DNA of 64,000 nt from a virus (taxonomy: Duplodnaviria; Heunggongvirae; Uroviricota; Caudoviricetes): IMG/VR virus record IMGVR_UViG_3300047548_000621, positions 8,200 to 72,199 of that record. The stretch is one strand, 5' to 3'. How positions within the stretch are numbered: the stretch's first letter is position 1; each line of letters begins with the position of its first letter. Under the pieces are notes generated by a model, which was given only the letters and a program-made list of their open reading frames with translations, searched no databases and was not told where the DNA came from. A program made the position numbers and the translations under genes. Of the stretch, positions 2,319 to 27,350 are shown piece after piece.

Positions 2319-2990
2319 ATGCGCTTTAATGAATTTTCTCAGCCGCTAGACGAAGGCGTTCACGATCCAAATATCTTCAAAGCCGTGTTTATGGCAGGAG
2401 CCCCAGGTTCGGGCAAGACAACAGTTTCTAATCAGTTGTTTGCTGGGACTGGATTAAAGTCTCTGAATGTAGACGATTTCTATAACTACTTGCGGCAATC
2501 ACAAAAAGCAGTGGGAGATCCAGAACAAGATTATGCTACTGCTTGGGAAAAGTACAGAAAAAGAGAGCAAAACTATCTAGATGGTCGCCTAGGATTGATC
2601 ATCGATGGCACTGGTAAAAACCCAGCTATTATGAATGATGTTAAGACTAAACTAGAAGAAATGGGATATGAGACTGCAATGGTCTTTGTCAATACATCAT
2701 TGGATACTAGTTTAGAACGCACCACTCGTAGATCACAACGTCCCGGAAGAGATTATGGTAGACAGATTGATCCTAAGTTTGTAAAAGACACTTGGATGAG
2801 AGTTCAACAAGCATTAGGACAATTACAGAGTATCTTTGGAAACAGGTTCTTTATCATTGATAACAATCGCGGTGATCCCGATATTGCATATGTTCAGAAA
2901 ACATTGGACAAATGGCTAAAAGCCAGTCCCCAATCCCACATCGCTAAAGAGTGGATCAAGAACGAGCTTCAAGCTAAGCAACAAAAATAG
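2319..2990 (+). CDS. P-loop NTPase or kinase (AAA_33/zeta-toxin-like fold)
   Basis: Walker A motif GAPGSGKTT about 25 aa from the N-terminus, 223 aa. The ATG is only 18 nt from the divergent upstream start, so the true start may lie downstream. Confidence 0.5.
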   Translation: MRFNEFSQPLDEGVHDPNIFKAVFMAGAPGSGKTTVSNQLFAGTGLKSLNVDDFYNYLRQSQKAVGDPEQDYATAWEKYRKREQNYLDGRLGLIIDGTGKNPAIMNDVKTKLEEMGYETAMVFVNTSLDTSLERTTRRSQRPGRDYGRQIDPKFVKDTWMRVQQALGQLQSIFGNRFFIIDNNRGDPDIAYVQKTLDKWLKASPQSHIAKEWIKNELQAKQQK

Positions 2991-3282: not shown

Positions 3283-4812
3283 TTATTTGTTAAGATATTT
3301 CCATAAATTTATGAAATAATTGTCTGCATATTCTGCTGATCTTCTTTTGATTTCTTCGCTTTCATCAACTTTTTTCAAAGAGGTCTTCATCATTTCGTAT
3401 GAATCGTAACCCAATCTTGTTAGACCTGCTGCCTGATATGGGTCTAGCTTTCGGCGGCCCGAATTATATATCTGACTATACTGGTTGCACATAAACTCAA
3501 ACGCTGCTTTCCTGTCCCAAATGTCATTTTTCCAATTGTGGTACAACCCAGATGAACCTAACAATTCATATCCGTATTTTTTTGGATTTTTTAAAATGCT
3601 ACTGTCATCATATTGTCCGGGACCAATTGATAAACACGAAAGGCTTAGCGCATCCATTGGAAAATCTTCATCAGATAACAATTCTATATTCTTCTCTGCT
3701 ATCTCTGGCGTTTCGCCCGGAAGTCCTATAATATATCCTGCGCTTATACCCAAAGCAGTGTCGCTTTCTTCATAGATATCTCTTAGCTTATACAATGTTT
3801 CTATATTTTTTTCAGGGGAGCCGCCCTTGCCTATAGCCTTAGCAGCAGGAGCGTGTAATGATTCTAACCCGAAAAAATAACCGTTAAAATTTAAATCCCT
3901 CAACATATACATCTGTTCAGGTTTAGCTGCTAATAAGTCTAATCTACAGCATCCCATAAATTTCAAATCAATTTTAGACTTGTCTCTAACATAAAGCATA
4001 CGCTCTATGTTATCTGTGCGGTGATTAAAAGTATCGTCAATTATGATGTAGCTAGTTGTTCCAAAATTTTCATAGTTATACAAAACTTCTTCTAGAATAC
4101 AATCTTCGTGTCTCATATACGAAAGGTCGTTTTTATTTTTACCTAAGAGTGGATAGGTACAAAAAGCACATTTAAAAATACACCCTCTCGATACTTCTAT
4201 AGGCAAAGACTCATTGTTTGTTACCCCATCATAGTGTTCCCATATGTGAGTGGAGTGCCTAAAATCAAACATATCACCTTTCATATCATATGATATGTCG
4301 TACATAAAAGTTTTAGGATCGTAATGCGGAGCTCCAACTGTCTTACTATAGATAGGATCTTTGTTTTTCTTGATGCATTCAACAATGTCTAAGATCATTC
4401 CTTCTCCCATACCTCGAACCACGTAATCTACATTAAAATTATGGTGCCGGCCGTGATCAAGCATAACATGGGTATTACCCCCACCGTAGATTATCTTTAT
4501 CTTTGGAAATTTAGTTTTTACGTATTCGTTAATAAGAGAAAATGTATCATCACCATCTTTAAAAGTAGAGACTATGCCCGGCCTACTATCATCCATAAAC
4601 AAAGTACTACTATACCCTAAAAATAAAGTATCAGTGGATATTACCCTATCTAATAAGCGCAACAATTCAGTAGTTGACAAATGGCTCATATGATCAATGA
4701 CCAAAGCCGAATATCCAGATTTGCGCAGTACGTCAGCTATTCTATAAGCACCGAAGGGTTTAAACCTTGTAGTCCAGGTCGCGTCTGATAATATCACTGC
4801 GTTGAATGTCAT
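3283..4812 (-). CDS. B12-binding-domain radical SAM enzyme (class B rSAM-like)
   Basis: 509 aa. N-terminal Rossmann-like cobalamin-binding region, then CIFKCAFCTYP (CxxxCxxC radical SAM motif). Paralog of the adjacent 493-aa ORF. Confidence 0.7.
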   Translation of the reverse strand: MTFNAVILSDATWTTRFKPFGAYRIADVLRKSGYSALVIDHMSHLSTTELLRLLDRVISTDTLFLGYSSTLFMDDSRPGIVSTFKDGDDTFSLINEYVKTKFPKIKIIYGGGNTHVMLDHGRHHNFNVDYVVRGMGEGMILDIVECIKKNKDPIYSKTVGAPHYDPKTFMYDISYDMKGDMFDFRHSTHIWEHYDGVTNNESLPIEVSRGCIFKCAFCTYPLLGKNKNDLSYMRHEDCILEEVLYNYENFGTTSYIIIDDTFNHRTDNIERMLYVRDKSKIDLKFMGCCRLDLLAAKPEQMYMLRDLNFNGYFFGLESLHAPAAKAIGKGGSPEKNIETLYKLRDIYEESDTALGISAGYIIGLPGETPEIAEKNIELLSDEDFPMDALSLSCLSIGPGQYDDSSILKNPKKYGYELLGSSGLYHNWKNDIWDRKAAFEFMCNQYSQIYNSGRRKLDPYQAAGLTRLGYDSYEMMKTSLKKVDESEEIKRRSAEYADNYFINLWKYLNK

Positions 4813-4820
4813 ATCAGTAT

Positions 4821-6302
4821 TTAACTATATAGTTTTTTGATTTTTGAAAAATATTCTTGCTCTATCTTTACTTTTAACTCAGGTATATTAGGCTTTATAG
4901 TTTCGTCAAATGTTTTGAGTGGCATATCAATCAGGTCATCAAATTTTAGACCAAATCTTAAATAGCCGGCTATCGAAAAAGACGGAATCTTCAATTTTCC
5001 AGAATCATACAGAAACAAGTTATAATGATTGGCAATCTCTGCACATTTATGATAGTCCCAAACATCGTTTTCCCAAAAAGGATCGTTTGTTAATCTATAC
5101 CCATATTTTTCAGGATTGGCGTATAAACTACTTTTACCAAATGCACTCTCACTCATCCATAATGGAGACAGTCCCACACAATCTACCGGAGAATCATCTT
5201 CTATTAGACGATTTATCCAGTAATCTACTGTTTCCGGCGTTTCATATGGTAGACCAACGATATACCCTAGCATTAAGTTAACTTTATTGTTGAATGCATT
5301 TTTGAGCTTATGCATTGTTTCAAACAATTCTTCGGCCGGAGCATACTTGCCTATAGCCTTAGCAGTCTTCTCATTTAGTGTTTCAACTCCAAAATAGTGT
5401 CCGTTGAAGTTAAGGTCCTTAAGTAAACTTATTTGCTCTGGCTTCTTTGCAAGCAAATCTAACCTGGTATATCCTACAAAATTTAAATCTAATTTTGTTC
5501 TGTCTCTTGCTCTTAGCAACAATTCTATTTTATCATTGCGTTCATTAAAAGTGTCATCTACGATCATATATGTAGTAGTATTGAACTTTTCATAATTATA
5601 CAAAAGTTCAGAGTACAGGGAATCTTCCAAACGTATATACGAGGTGTCTTGTTTGTGCATTCCTATTAAAGGAAAAGTACAAAATGTACATCGGAAAATA
5701 CAACCTCTTGCAACTTCAAGAGGTAGGCATTCACCCTCTATTATAAAATCTGAATCGTGCCAAAAATGTGTAGAATGCTTATAATCATACAGCTTGCCTC
5801 TGAGGTCATATGAAATAACATAAGCACCATTTACTTTATAATCATAGTAGGGTTCAGTATCATTTGCTAGTGAGTTTACTAAGTCCAACATCATAGATTC
5901 TGCGTAGCCTAATACAACATAATCAGTATACGTTTCTCGTATTTTTACGAGTTGTTCAAGAATTACATTACTATTGCTACCGCCCACTATAATTTTTATA
6001 TTAGGGTATCTATTCTTAATATGTTGATTAATTGCAACGAAATCATCGTCTCCGTTATCAAAGGGAACTTTATGATTTTTTTTACTATGAAACAGGGTGG
6101 TACTGTAACCCAAGAATAAAGTATCATCAGTAATAATGATATCTAATAAAGCAAAAAGCTGGTCTAATGGCAATCTGGATACATAGTCTAATACTTGTAT
6201 TTCATACCCTGCTTTTCGCAGTGTATCAGCAATCGTATATGCGCCTAGAGGTCTAATTCTTTCATCAAATACTGCATCAGTGAGTATAACGCCGTGGATC
6301 AT
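4821..6302 (-). CDS. B12-binding-domain radical SAM enzyme, tandem paralog
   Basis: 493 aa with CIFRCTFCTFP motif. Collinear similarity to 3283-4812, including LFLGYS(S/T)TLF, GYI(I/V)GLP(G/Y)ETPE and NP(K/E)KYGY. Confidence 0.7.
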   Translation of the reverse strand: MIHGVILTDAVFDERIRPLGAYTIADTLRKAGYEIQVLDYVSRLPLDQLFALLDIIITDDTLFLGYSTTLFHSKKNHKVPFDNGDDDFVAINQHIKNRYPNIKIIVGGSNSNVILEQLVKIRETYTDYVVLGYAESMMLDLVNSLANDTEPYYDYKVNGAYVISYDLRGKLYDYKHSTHFWHDSDFIIEGECLPLEVARGCIFRCTFCTFPLIGMHKQDTSYIRLEDSLYSELLYNYEKFNTTTYMIVDDTFNERNDKIELLLRARDRTKLDLNFVGYTRLDLLAKKPEQISLLKDLNFNGHYFGVETLNEKTAKAIGKYAPAEELFETMHKLKNAFNNKVNLMLGYIVGLPYETPETVDYWINRLIEDDSPVDCVGLSPLWMSESAFGKSSLYANPEKYGYRLTNDPFWENDVWDYHKCAEIANHYNLFLYDSGKLKIPSFSIAGYLRFGLKFDDLIDMPLKTFDETIKPNIPELKVKIEQEYFSKIKKLYS

Positions 6303-7727: not shown

Positions 7728-7899
7728 GATAAACTTGTTACGCTATTGCTGCAATATAGCTTCGGGACTTCGAAACCCGAACCTGGTCCCTATTGTCGCC
7801 TTATGGGCTATCGTCGTTCTCCGTGCTAGCCTTACACCACATCTACTGTCACCGTTTGCAACCGTAAAATGCAGCAATATTAAAACTTTTTATTGATTT

Positions 7900-8180
7900 T
7901 GGTATGAGCGGCGGGACTCGAACCCGCACGTCCAAAGGACACAAGATTTTCTTACCACTATAGCTTTCGCTACCCATTAGTTTGTGGTCTGGACTATCCC
8001 TTCATCATATCATGACTGACTTAGATGCCTGCCGTCTAGTCTCTACACCTTCCCTTTCGGGCTTGGCTCGGGATCAGCATTTTACAGCCTTCCCCGAATT
8101 TGACAGGTTCTACTCTAGAGATTTCCCTCTAGGCACTCAAATTAATAAGTCTCGGGCGTCTACCATTCCGCCACGCTCAC
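7900..8180 (-). tRNA. tRNA-Leu (UAA) interrupted by a group I intron (exon 1 at 8147-8180, exon 2 at 7900-7950)
   Basis: The two exons join to an 85-nt class II tRNA. Acceptor GUGAGCG/CGCUCAU, D-arm UGGCGGAAUGGUAGACGC, anticodon stem CGAGA/UCUUG with loop CU-U|AAAA, variable arm, T-arm GCGGGUUCGAGUCCCGC, CCA. The split falls between U34 and A35. Confidence 0.75.
7951..8146 (-). ncRNA. Group I intron (tRNA-Leu UAA type, 196 nt, no ORF)
   Basis: Follows a U at the 5' splice site and ends with G before the 3' exon. Carries recognisable group I conserved elements: P-like AAAUUCGGGGAA, Q-like AUCCCGAGCC, R-like GUAGAGACUAGACGG, S-like AAGGGAUAGUCC. Confidence 0.65.
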
Positions 8181-8884: not shown

Positions 8885-8959
8885 TGGTAGCGCCGAGGAA
8901 TTCTGCCATCCTGACCTTTCGGGTGTAAACCGAATGCTCTACTTCTGAGCTACGGCGCC
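8885..8959 (-). tRNA. tRNA-Val (UAC)-like with non-canonical T-loop (GGCAGAA) and D-loop lacking GG; possible pseudogene
   Basis: Acceptor GGCGCCG/CGGCGCU, anticodon stem UUCGG/CCGAA with loop UUUACAC, CCA. The T-stem has a 53-61 mismatch and the T-loop has no TΨC. Confidence 0.45.
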
Positions 8960-11569: not shown

Positions 11570-11660
11570 TGGTACTCCTGCTCGGATTCGAACCGAGACC
11601 GACCCCTAATCTGGGCTCCGGGATATAAATCCGGCCACTCTACCATTAAGCTACAGGAGT
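11570..11660 (-). tRNA. Class II-like tRNA, anticodon uncertain (best parse loop UUUAUAU with A31-C39 mismatch, possibly Ile-UAU)
   Basis: Perfect 7-bp acceptor ACUCCUG/CAGGAGU, T-arm CUCGGUUCGAAUCCGAG, CCA, and a variable arm of about 20 nt. The anticodon arm is irregular. Confidence 0.4.
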
Positions 11661-13672: not shown

Positions 13673-13756
13673 TGGTGGGCCGGTGTGGACTTGAACCACG
13701 CCCCGAAGGATGAGTTTTACAGACTCACTGCTAAATCCAATTAGCTTTACCGTCCC
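13673..13756 (-). tRNA. tRNA-Tyr (GUA), class II, second copy
   Basis: Anticodon stem UGAGU/ACUCA with loop CUGUAAA, long variable arm, T-loop GGUUCAAGUCC, CCA. The acceptor has one A-G mismatch. Confidence 0.55.
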
Positions 13757-13763
13757 ATTAACT

Positions 13764-13948
13764 TGGTGAGGGCGACCAGATTCGAACTGGCAGAAGTCGT
13801 TACCAAAGCATTACCAGTGGCTGCCATCAGGTTCAAAGACTGCCGCGAGTCTACAAAAAATACCCCTAGGCACTTGCGAACAAACTCGGGTGTTACCCCA
13901 ATCGTTCCTTACTTTAACGATGCGTATACCTATTTCCGCTACGCCCTC
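13764..13948 (-). ncRNA. tRNA-like RNA with a ~105-nt insertion between the anticodon-stem halves
   Basis: 5' part has acceptor GAGGGCG, D-arm GCGGAAAUAGGUAUACGC and stem UCGUU. 3' part has AACGA, a 5-nt variable loop, T-arm GCCAGUUCGAAUCUGGU, acceptor CGCCCUC, A, CCA. The two parts are separated by about 105 nt that contains a second AACGA. Confidence 0.4.
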
Positions 13949-14585: not shown

Positions 14586-14681
14586 TGGTGGACTGTGAAG
14601 GATTCGAACCTTCGAGTGGCCGTCGCCAATGAGTACCATACTTAATGGGAATCGAACCCAATCCTCTTCCAGGAACAGTCC
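14586..14681 (-). ncRNA. tRNA-like element of unknown fold (7-bp acceptor plus CCA, two T-arm-like hairpins)
   Basis: Ends GAAGGUUCGAAUCCUUC-ACAGUCC-A-CCA with a matching 5' GGACUGU 96 nt upstream. The interior holds a second UGGGUUCGAUUCCCA hairpin and no recognisable anticodon arm. Confidence 0.3.
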
Positions 14682-16226: not shown

Positions 16227-16300
16227 TGGTGCTCCCAGGAGGTACCGCCCCTCCGGCTCATCATTACCAATGATGTGTATTGCTTTTATACTATGGGAGC
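16227..16300 (-). tRNA. Atypical tRNA-Thr (GGU)-like with non-canonical T-loop (GGCGGUA) and D-loop (AAAAGCA)
   Basis: Perfect acceptor GCUCCCA/UGGGAGC with CCA. Anticodon stem CAUCA/UGAUG with loop UUGGUAA. T-stem GGAGG/CCUCC is perfect but the loop has no TΨC, and the D-loop has no GG. Confidence 0.4.
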
Positions 16301-27275: not shown

Positions 27276-27350
27276 TGGCGCGCTCGGTGGGATTCGAACC
27301 CACTGTCTCGGGCTTTAGAGACCCTTGCAATACCATTTAGCCTCGGGCGC
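27276..27350 (-). tRNA. tRNA-like gene, candidate amber suppressor (CUA), anticodon arm ambiguous
   Basis: Acceptor GCGCCCG/CGAGCGC (one C-A mismatch), D-loop with GG, T-arm GUGGGUUCGAAUCCCAC, G73, CCA. Standard numbering gives stem AGGGU/GCCCG (27-43 mismatch) and loop CUCUAAA. The alternative is a perfect 5-bp stem GUCUC/GAGAC with an 8-nt loop. Confidence 0.4.

What the first reader, a model, noticed from the sequence alone, without database searches (positions are those of the whole stretch)
13764..13948. tRNA-like RNA with a ~105-nt insertion splitting the anticodon stem
GAGGGCG...UCGUU at the 5' end and AACGA-CUUCU-GCCAGUUCGAAUCUGGU-CGCCCUC-A-CCA at the 3' end form an acceptor, D-arm, T-arm and a 5-bp anticodon stem. 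The ~105 nt in between contains a second AACGA immediately after a 9-nt loop. That is too short for a group I intron. It could be a novel small intron, a permuted or split tRNA, or a stable tRNA-like small RNA like the T4 'species 1/2' RNAs that sit in its tRNA cluster.
Basis: seen in the sequence. Interest (0 to 1): 0.6.

Follow-up and report, generated by a model that had tools for sequence, protein, structure and literature searches.

The report
Phage tRNA-shaped RNA with structured insert
A 185-base gene in a lake jumbo phage's tRNA array has the top half of a tRNA but a conserved, folded ~100-base domain where the decoding half should be, so it is most likely a new tRNA-shaped structured RNA rather than a tRNA with an intron.

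Summary
On the minus strand, 13948..13764 encodes a 185-nt RNA with a genuine tRNA shell: a 7-bp acceptor stem, D arm, T arm, A73 and an encoded CCA. It sits inside a co-oriented array of about 40 tRNA genes, and about 107 nt interrupt the place where ARAGORN can build an anticodon arm. The "intron splitting the anticodon stem" reading is not the best one.

I found five distinct versions, one only 60% identical. They support a different fold:
- a closed pseudo-anticodon hairpin;
- a small hairpin;
- an ~95-nt three-way-junction domain whose base helix uses the supposed 3' stem strand.

On this fold 97.7% of cells are paired, 21 pairs changed on both sides, and loops are more conserved than stems. 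In the divergent homolog the second stem strand is out of register. ARAGORN also calls tRNAs from many arbitrary deletions, including when the interior is shuffled.

The insert is not a group I intron, does not form a bulge-helix-bulge motif, and matches no Rfam family. One invariant loop copies the anticodon loop of the phage's own tRNA-Thr(GGU).

Best reading: a new non-decoding tRNA-like structured RNA, function unknown. A novel small intron is not excluded.

The parts
13764..13948 (-). Whole 185-nt tRNA-shaped RNA. RNA nt p corresponds to window coordinate 13949-p.
   Evidence: Homologs score 222-156 bits with models R1/R2. Conservation boundaries coincide with G1 and CCA.
13942..13948 (-). 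Acceptor stem, 5' strand GAGGGCG (nt 1-7).
   Evidence: Pairs with nt 175-181. Paired in 100% of cells, with 3 pairs changed on both sides in L269.
13922..13939 (-). D arm (nt 10-27), with A14 and G18G19-type loop nucleotides.
   Evidence: All 3 stem pairs changed on both sides in L269. The loop AAA..AGG.AUA is invariant.
13901..13921 (-). Pseudo-anticodon hairpin AUCGUU-AAAGUAAGG-AACGAU (nt 28-48), directly abutting the D stem. The loop is 9-10 nt and has no U33.
   Evidence: Paired in 100% of cells; G-C to C-G change in L269; loop AAAGUA.G nearly invariant, with a 1-nt insertion in L041.
13888..13899 (-). Small hairpin GGG-GUAACA-CCC (nt 50-61), at the position of a class II variable arm.
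   Evidence: G-C to A-U compensatory change in the CUA clade. The GUAA loop is conserved.
13879..13887 (-). Helix X, 5' strand GAGUUUGUU (nt 62-70).
   Evidence: Pairs with nt 148-155; 5 of 8 pairs changed on both sides across the five variants.
13873..13878 (-). Junction strand CGCAAG (nt 71-76), consensus CGNAAG.
   Evidence: Conserved and unpaired in all variants.
13822..13872 (-). Long irregular hairpin H (nt 77-127). Base helix is UGCC/GGCA. It has a U-rich internal loop and an apical AGACU-CGCGGC-AGUCU.
   Evidence: The window-specific C79/G125, against A/U in the other variants, is an independent compensatory event. Window and L120 differ at only 3 sites, and 2 of them are this pair. 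3 of 4 base pairs changed on both sides in L269.
13802..13821 (-). Third arm of the junction (nt 128-147): GCCA / CUGGUAAUGCUU / UGGU. The loop YUGGUAAUGCUY is near-invariant.
   Evidence: Helix Z 128-131/144-147 has a C-G to U-A change. An alternative stem 127-131/139-143 also shows an A-U to G-C change (by inspection; ARAGORN drawing). AUUGGUAAUG equals the anticodon loop and flanks of the phage's tRNA-Thr(GGU) at 16230-16300.
13794..13801 (-). Helix X, 3' strand AACGACUU (nt 148-155).
   Evidence: Covaries with nt 62-70, not with nt 29-33.
13775..13791 (-). T arm GCCAG-UUCGAAU-CUGGU (nt 158-174).
   Evidence: Paired in 100% of cells; one pair changed on both sides; T loop invariant.
13764..13774 (-). 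Acceptor stem 3' strand CGCCCUC, discriminator A, and encoded CCA (nt 175-185).

Best explanation
It is a gene for a discrete, non-decoding, tRNA-shaped structured RNA of a previously undescribed family.

Shown: it lies in the phage's polycistronic tRNA array, with 9-nt spacers to both neighbours. It has a bona fide acceptor/T/D shell with A73 and an encoded CCA. Its conserved fold closes the anticodon-arm position with a hairpin that has a non-decoding 9-10-nt loop. An ~95-nt three-way-junction domain (helix X, long hairpin H, arm Z) sits in the variable-arm position.

Inferred: the shell lets RNase P and 3' processing release and stabilise the RNA like a tRNA. The conserved loops (AAAGUARG, GUAAC, CGNAAG, the U-rich loop, CUCGCG, YUGGUAAUGCUY) make tertiary contacts or a binding surface.

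Speculative: because one invariant loop copies the anticodon loop of the phage's own tRNA-Thr(GGU), the RNA may act as a tRNA mimic that engages a tRNA-binding enzyme or nuclease. The 'tRNA(UUG/CUA) with an intron' that ARAGORN can assemble is then a vestige or a coincidence, not the product.
For: 1) Five distinct variants were found (window; L120/L122; L001-3/L123; L041/L124; L269/L270). L269 is 59.6% identical to the window.
2) The structure was predicted from the four close variants. When the divergent L269 is added, it holds: 97.7% of cells paired, 21 pairs changed on both sides, 0 of 500 shuffles reach this, and slid controls give about 40% paired with 1-3 such pairs.
3) An independent compensatory event: window C79-G125 against A-U in the others.
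4) Unpaired columns are more conserved than paired ones (56/84 against 44/106 invariant), as in functional structured RNAs.
5) Helix X uses the supposed 3' anticodon-stem strand and covaries with interior nt 62-70. The supposed stem 29-33/148-152 has a C.A mismatch in two variants. In L269 the homologous deletion gives no tRNA.
6) The ARAGORN 'intron' call is not specific.
7) The shell does not carry tRNA-Gln features. The phage's own tRNA-Gln genes have U1-A72 and a CUUUGAA loop, and both UUG and CUG Gln tRNAs already exist.
8) The element is 86-98% identical between phages whose ordinary tRNAs are 70-85% identical. The conserved unit is exactly G1..CCA.
9) These arrays hold other non-tRNA structured RNAs: GOLLD in L120/L122, a ~150-nt RNA at 7735-7885, and a 96-nt tRNA-like RNA.
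10) Precedent: T4 RNAC and RNAD, stable RNAs of still unknown function (PMC9697503). That they are encoded in T4's tRNA cluster is from my own knowledge.
Against: No expression data exist, so a discrete 185-nt RNA is inferred, not seen. Only five variants from about three lineages are known, and alignment A5 was fitted to the model, which inflates pair counts. In the window and L120 the latent stem UCGUU/AACGA is perfect and is followed by a canonical C-U-NNN-G-U loop and a 5-nt variable loop. The 5' 'exon' ends in U and the insert ends in G. In two variants the latent anticodon reads CUA, and an amber suppressor would make biological sense, since the window carries another tRNA(CUA) at 27276-27350. 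Thermodynamics do not discriminate: constrained folds give -51.7 against -55.4 kcal/mol in the window and -53.4 against -49.6 in L001. The MFE is not unusual (z = -0.87). No function can be assigned.
Confidence: 0.6

Rival explanations
1. An interrupted tRNA gene. A class I tRNA with anticodon UUG (window, L120) or CUA (L001, L041) carries a new kind of ~107-nt intervening sequence between positions 31 and 32. The insert masks both stem strands and the anticodon until it is removed, either by an unknown ribozyme activity or by a nuclease plus ligase.
For: Removing nt 34-140 gives an ARAGORN-valid tRNA in four variants. The latent stem is perfect in the window. There is a U before the 5' junction and a G before the 3' junction. 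The insert pairs with the last 6 nt of the 5' part and with nt 4-15 of the 3' part, like guide sequences. The UUG-to-CUA difference lies at latent positions 34 and 36. A related phage has a 62-nt non-group-I insert at position 32/33 of tRNA-Leu(UAA).
Against: No known mechanism fits: it is not group I, has no bulge-helix-bulge, and matches no Rfam ribozyme. The C.A mismatch in the latent stem of the CUA clade is uncompensated, while helix X is compensated. The homologous deletion fails in L269. Both 'anticodon' changes have compensating partners inside the insert (143 with 127, 145 with 130). The P10-like pairing is broken by U143C. The shell lacks Gln identity features and the tRNA would be redundant. 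No TAG recoding is visible. No RNA ligase or splicing endonuclease was found in the Pfam-scanned ORFs up to about 43 kb of the window.
Confidence: 0.15
2. A degenerate group I intron, a deletion derivative of the kind found in the window's tRNA-Leu(UAA). It would be either dead or spliced with help in trans.
For: The same array holds a real 196-nt group I intron. The two share short strings (AGUGCCUAGRGG, GUAGA..CGGCAG, GAACCUG, UGGUAA(U)G). The U...G junction rule is met.
Against: The local similarity is not significant: 29 of 500 shuffles score as well. The best shared string depends on the window-specific C79. RF00028 gives no hit even at E<=10. No P3/P7 pseudoknot or P4-P6 domain can be drawn. 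The 5' junction U pairs with A, not G.
Confidence: 0.03
3. A decaying pseudogene: a tRNA gene disabled by an insertion and drifting neutrally.
For: Default tRNA finders do not call it. The anticodon-position loop varies in length (9 or 10 nt).
Against: It is more conserved than functional tRNAs in the same genomes. It shows 21 compensatory pairs and conserved loops. It is retained as an exact unit in different genomic contexts.
Confidence: 0.04
4. A bistable or 'caged' tRNA-like RNA. The 3' strand 148-155 and the segment 127-131 switch partners (X/Z against Y or the GGU hairpin) to expose or hide an anticodon-like arm, without any cutting.
For: Segment 151-154 covaries with both 63-67 and 127-130. 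Segment 127-131 can pair with 139-143, 144-147 or 151-154, each with consistent substitutions. The two constrained folds are close in energy.
Against: Most of these changes lie on a single branch, so the alternatives cannot be separated. Short GC-rich 4-mers pair easily by chance. No ligand or effector is known.
Confidence: 0.1

Closest known systems
Phage T4 stable RNAs RNAC and RNAD (species 1/2)
   Same: T4 RNAC and RNAD are small stable RNAs of still unknown function (PMC9697503). From my own knowledge, they are encoded in the phage tRNA cluster. The element here is likewise a non-tRNA RNA gene inside a phage tRNA array.
   Different: No sequence or structural relationship was tested or is apparent. 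The present RNA keeps a full acceptor/D/T shell and adds a three-way-junction domain. It occurs in lake jumbo phages.
Bacterial tRNA genes with group I introns (e.g. tRNA-Leu(UAA), present at 7900-8180 in this window)
   Same: A tRNA shell interrupted near the anticodon loop. An interior segment pairs with the 5' stem strand as P1 does. There is a U before the 5' junction and a G before the 3' junction.
   Different: The insert is 107 nt, against 196 nt or more. It has no catalytic core, no U.G wobble, and no RF00028 hit. It sits at position 31/32. Its interior is as conserved as the shell.
Class II tRNAs (Leu/Ser/Tyr) with long variable arms
   Same: The 5' 61 nt read as acceptor, D arm, anticodon-arm hairpin and variable-arm hairpin. 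Outside the family, the best hits of model R1 are tRNA-Leu genes. The discriminator is A73.
   Different: The anticodon loop is 9-10 nt without U33, and an extra ~95-nt domain lies between the variable hairpin and the T arm.
Archaeal/eukaryal pre-tRNA introns with an anticodon-intron helix
   Same: An interior segment (GCCA/GCUA) pairs with, and covaries with, latent anticodon nt 35-38.
   Different: No bulge-helix-bulge motif can be drawn at either junction. The position is not 37/38. The host is probably a Gram-negative bacterium, because the phage encodes a TonB-dependent receptor.
tRNA-mimicking non-coding RNAs (tmRNA, YrlA-type Y RNAs, the thrS operator)
   Same: A tRNA-like module combined with a non-tRNA domain. 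There is an anticodon-stem-loop-like hairpin resembling tRNA-Thr, as in the thrS operator (own knowledge).
   Different: ARAGORN finds no tmRNA and no tag ORF. There is no Rfam hit. The 5' and 3' ends form the acceptor stem itself.

Membership tests
Canonical tRNA (RF00005) | 7-bp acceptor stem, D arm and T arm with conserved elbow nucleotides, a discriminator and CCA | tested here: met
   Sequence; covariation in the acceptor, D and T stems.
Canonical tRNA (RF00005) | A contiguous 5-bp anticodon stem with a 7-nt loop (U33), and a score above the family threshold | tested here: not met
   No RF00005 hit at E<=10. Default ARAGORN gives no call. The hairpin at the anticodon-arm position has a 9-10-nt loop AAAGUAAGG.
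Group I intron (RF00028) | Conserved P3-P8/P4-P6 core with a P7 guanosine site | tested here: not met
   No hit at E<=10 on the element, while the same model gives 65.7 bits on 7970-8157. Similarity to that intron is not significant.
Group I intron (RF00028) | U.G wobble at the 5' splice site in P1, and a terminal G at the 3' end | tested here: inconclusive
   The terminal G140 is present and conserved, but U33 pairs with A43, not G.
Archaeal/eukaryal endonuclease-spliced tRNA intron | Bulge-helix-bulge motif with both junctions in 3-nt bulges 4 bp apart | tested here: not met
   By inspection of the cloverleaf-constrained fold. The only helix-bulge-helix that can be drawn would give a loop AAAGUAU without U33.
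Archaeal/eukaryal endonuclease-spliced tRNA intron | A splicing endonuclease and a ligase are available | not testable with these tools
   None found among the Pfam-scanned ORFs of the window. The rest of the ~300-kb genome and the host are unknown.
tmRNA | tRNA-like domain plus a tag reading frame | tested here: not met
   ARAGORN reports no tmRNA. Rfam shows no tmRNA hit on the element.
Small self-cleaving ribozymes (hammerhead, twister, pistol, hatchet, HDV-like) | A match to the family covariance model or its core motifs | tested here: not met
   No Rfam hit at E<=10. The CUGAUG string is not conserved; it reads CCAAUG in L041.
Phage stable tRNA-like RNAs (T4 RNAC/RNAD type) | Encoded in the tRNA cluster, with tRNA-like ends | tested here: met
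Phage stable tRNA-like RNAs (T4 RNAC/RNAD type) | Accumulates as a discrete stable RNA during infection | not testable with these tools
   No expression data are available.

The most novel reading that the evidence does not exclude
The ~107-nt domain is a new class of small tRNA intervening sequence, either self-excising or cut out by a nuclease and resealed by a ligase. It carries guide segments for both flanks and 'cages' a suppressor or Gln-reading tRNA until it is removed. A 62-nt relative would sit in tRNA-Leu(UAA) of a sister phage.
Probability: 0.12. Interest if true: 0.9.

Novelty: new variant of a known kind. Interest (0 to 1): 0.55.

Why it matters
If the favoured reading holds, this is a new covariation-supported structured RNA family: 185 nt, about 53 base pairs, with conserved loops. 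It is built on a tRNA scaffold and carried in the tRNA arrays of uncultured lake jumbo phages, alongside GOLLD and other unexplained RNAs. It would add to the small set of phage tRNA mimics whose roles are still open, for example in translation takeover or in countering defences that target tRNAs. It also shows that intron-tolerant tRNA finders can invent 'introns' in such genes. If the minority reading holds, it would be the first non-group-I/II intervening sequence in a bacterial-virus tRNA.

Tried and rejected
- **Group I origin.** Alignment against the window's 196-nt tRNA-Leu intron is not significant, and Rfam finds nothing.
- **Bulge-helix-bulge and hammerhead motifs.** Neither can be drawn, and neither is conserved.
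- **P10-like pairing of UAAGG or AAAG with CUUUG.** It is present in the window but broken by U143C in the CUA clade.
- **TAG recoding as a reason for a CUA suppressor.** No read-through candidates on the coding strand.
- **Internal duplication.** No direct repeats were found.
- **Intrinsic terminator at the small hairpin.** Only a consensus-level match, at the chance rate.
- **CRISPR-repeat mimicry.** There is a 10-nt identity, UCUUUGAACC, with the 3' half of the Bacteroides fragilis II-C repeat. I judge it a chance match, and it is not conserved in L269.
- **tRNA-Gln identity.** The shell is unlike the phage's own tRNA-Gln genes.
- **Homolog searches that found nothing new.** GenBank phages in near and distant modes. 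Five further IMG/VR patterns. A neighbour-protein search of IMG/VR. GTDB genomes. Jumbo-phage loci reached through the neighbouring DUF7448 gene.
- **Protein structure tools.** Not relevant to this locus.

Full report
**Setting**

The window is part of an uncultured large phage of about 40% GC. Its genes include NAMPT, NadM-Nudix, ribonucleotide reductase, a TonB-dependent receptor, tail-fibre genes and two B12-binding radical SAM genes. All of its tRNA genes are on the minus strand between about 2990 and 17200: 35 by ARAGORN, plus several that only Rfam finds. Relatives lie on lake-metagenome contigs of 300-363 kb. No GenBank phage is similar.

**Observation**

On the minus strand, 13948..13764 reads:

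GAGGGCG-UA-GCGGAAAUAGGUAUACGC-AUCGUU-AAAGUAAGG-AACGAU-U-GGGGUAACACCC-GAGUUUGUU-...-CUUUGGU-AACGACUU-CU-GCCAGUUCGAAUCUGGU-CGCCCUC-A-CCA.

- Nine-nt spacers separate the element from tRNA-Ala(GGC) upstream and from a Tyr-like tRNA downstream.
- Default ARAGORN and Rfam do not call it.

**Homologs**

Exact-pattern scans of IMG/VR and of JGI metagenomes found three further close variants:

- L120/L122, 98% identical, latent anticodon UUG;
- L001-3/L123, 89% identical, latent anticodon CUA;
- L041/L124, 87% identical, latent anticodon CUA.

Identical copies occur in two Logan assemblies.

In the CUA clade a DUF7448 gene follows the element. Looking upstream of a 92%-identical DUF7448 protein (P0001) gave a much more divergent member, L269/L270. 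It scores 85.8 bits with the model built from the four close variants, and it is 59.6% identical to the window.

No other member was found in IMG/VR, in the GTDB genomes, or in about 2.2 Mb of fetched loci.

**Conservation**

The conserved unit is exactly the RNA. Identity starts about 10 nt before G1 and ends at CCA, while the flanks differ between phages. The element is 86-98% identical between phages whose orthologous tRNAs are only 70-85% identical and whose coding DNA is about 75% identical.

**Structure**

RNAalifold on the four close variants did not return the 'split anticodon stem'. It returned the following helices:

| Element | RNA positions | Note |
|---|---|---|
| Acceptor stem | 1-7 / 175-181 | |
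| D stem | 10-12 / 25-27 | |
| Closed hairpin | 28-33 / 43-48 | the first AACGA copy |
| Small hairpin | 50-52 / 59-61 | |
| Helix X | 62-70 / 148-155 | uses the second AACGA copy |
| Long hairpin H | 77-127 | |
| Helix Z | 128-131 / 144-147 | |
| T arm | 158-162 / 170-174 | |

Supporting details:

- All 11 substitutions that fall in helices preserve pairing.
- Window and L120 differ at three sites. Two of them are the pair C79-G125 against A-U, which is an independent compensatory event.
- Adding L269, which was not used to derive the structure, gives 97.7% of cells paired and 21 pairs changed on both sides.
- No shuffle out of 500 reaches those values, and slid controls give about 40% paired with 1-3 such pairs.
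- RNAalifold on the five sequences returns essentially the same fold.
- Unpaired columns are more often invariant than paired ones: 56/84 against 44/106.

Caveats: there are only five sequences, and A5 was aligned to the model.

**The intron reading tested**

1. The proposed stem 29-33/148-152 is perfect in the window and L120. In L001 and L041 it has U.G and C.A pairs, because G151A and A152G were compensated in helix X (U66C) and not in the 5' strand.
2. In L269 the 5' strand and the first copy covary (GCCUU/AAGGU), but the second copy is 2 nt out of register. The homologous deletion gives no ARAGORN tRNA. A call appears only with a different junction and a U.C mismatch.
3. Both changes in the latent 'anticodon' have compensating partners inside the insert: U143C with A127G, and G145A with C130U.
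4. The ARAGORN call is not specific.
   - Of 1300 arbitrary internal deletions of the window element, 197 are called tRNAs, with about 30 different anticodons. The commonest is GGU.
   - With the interior shuffled, 1-245 of 1300 are still called.
5. The shell lacks the U1-A72 pair and the CUUUGAA loop of the phage's own tRNA-Gln(UUG) and tRNA-Gln(CUG).
6. No TAG recoding is visible.
7. Mechanistically, the insert is not group I.
   - RF00028 hits the window's real 196-nt tRNA-Leu(UAA) intron at 65.7 bits, but it does not hit this element at E<=10.
   - Sequence similarity to that intron is not significant.
8. No bulge-helix-bulge can be drawn, and no small-ribozyme family matches.

The points still in favour of an intron are listed under the rival explanations. 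They keep that reading alive at about 0.15.

**What it looks like instead**

The 5' 61 nt resemble a complete class II tRNA up to the variable arm. Outside the family, the best hits of the model are tRNA-Leu genes. The anticodon-position loop, however, is 9-10 nt and has no U33.

Judging from the zero-length linkers, three coaxial stacks are expected: acceptor/T, D/pseudo-anticodon hairpin, and small hairpin/helix X (inference). That would give a tRNA-like L shape with a long extra arm that ends in a three-way junction.

The near-invariant loop of the third arm, YUGGUAAUGCUY, contains C/U-U-GGU-A-A. In the CUA clade its 10 nt AUUGGUAAUG are identical to the anticodon loop and flanks of the phage's own unusual tRNA-Thr(GGU) at 16230-16300. 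UGGU is also complementary to ACCA-3' (observation; not tested).

I therefore favour a non-decoding tRNA mimic, released and stabilised through its tRNA shell, whose junction domain binds a partner. The fold is shown; the processing and the binding role are inferred.

Substitutions are also consistent with alternative pairings of nt 127-131 and 151-154, so a conformational switch cannot be excluded. Thermodynamics do not decide between the folds.

**Comparison and novelty**

The closest known things are T4 RNAC/RNAD (function unknown, PMC9697503), class II tRNAs, group-I-interrupted tRNAs, and tRNA mimics such as tmRNA and YrlA. The element fails the defining tests for canonical tRNA, group I intron, bulge-helix-bulge intron, tmRNA and the known small ribozymes. 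No Rfam family covers it.

I rate it a new variant of a known kind, namely phage tRNA-like structured RNA. It is of moderate to high interest because the fold is well supported, the family is narrow, and the function is open.

Noticed in passing
window 7900-8180 (-): tRNA-Leu(UAA) is split between U34 and A35 by a 196-nt group I intron (Rfam 65.7 bits), which is very small for the class. Default ARAGORN misses it. Orthologues in related phages are intron-less (L125, L128, L131) or carry a ~206-nt intron (L139, L140).
   Followed up: partly
L003 449-597 (-): The orthologous tRNA-Leu(UAA) carries a 62-nt structured insert between positions 32 and 33 that is not group I. It has a closing helix CGAGGA/UCCUCG, a GAAA tetraloop and a T-arm-like hairpin. 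Only one sequence is known.
   Followed up: partly
L120 2641-3128 (+); L122 512-999 (-): A GOLLD RNA (Rfam 192 bits) lies about 900 nt downstream of the element in the closest relative's tRNA array. The window itself has no GOLLD hit.
   Followed up: no
window 7735-7885 (-): A ~150-nt conserved non-tRNA RNA is closed by UAUUGCUGCA/UGCAGCAAUA and contains a T-arm-like hairpin. It shows 4 compensatory pairs against L003 176-326.
   Followed up: partly
window 14586-14681 (-): A 96-nt tRNA-like RNA has an acceptor stem, T arm and CCA, but its interior consists of three hairpins, one of them a second T-arm-like UGGG-UUCGAUU-CCCA. No D arm or anticodon arm is evident.
   Followed up: no
window 13678-13754 (-): An uncalled Tyr-like tRNA(GUA) has an acceptor-stem mismatch and a short variable arm (Rfam 19 bits, below threshold). 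It is conserved next to the element in L041.
   Followed up: partly
window 16230-16300 (-) and 8888-8959 (-): Two tRNAs are found only by Rfam: tRNA-Thr(GGU), and one that I read by eye as tRNA-Val(UAC). Both have aberrant T arms. The Thr anticodon loop UUGGUAAUG recurs inside the element.
   Followed up: partly
window 27276-27350 (-): A stand-alone suppressor tRNA(CUA) lies outside the main array. TAG still serves as a normal stop in the window's ORFs, and no read-through candidates were found.
   Followed up: partly
window 11570-11660 (-): tRNA-Ile(UAU) has a long, class II-like variable arm (91 nt in total). It is conserved in L003, L041 and L120.
   Followed up: no
window 3283-6302 (-) and 2319-2990 (+): Two tandem B12-binding radical SAM genes are embedded in the tRNA array, next to a Zeta-toxin/AAA_33-type kinase that is conserved in related jumbo phages (L133, L134). 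A role in RNA modification or repair is possible.
   Followed up: no
L123 922-1038 (+) (= L002 3385-3501, L003 10465-10581): A 117-nt tRNA-like RNA has an extended 9-bp terminal helix GCAGUUUAG/CUAAACUGC, a T arm and an unusual interior.
   Followed up: no
window 13829-13842 (-), RNA nt 107-120: UCUUUGAACC, plus AUGG and CAGC, matches the 3' half of the 47-nt Bacteroides fragilis type II-C CRISPR repeat (bioRxiv 10.1101/344358). It is probably a chance match, and it is not conserved in L269.
   Followed up: partly
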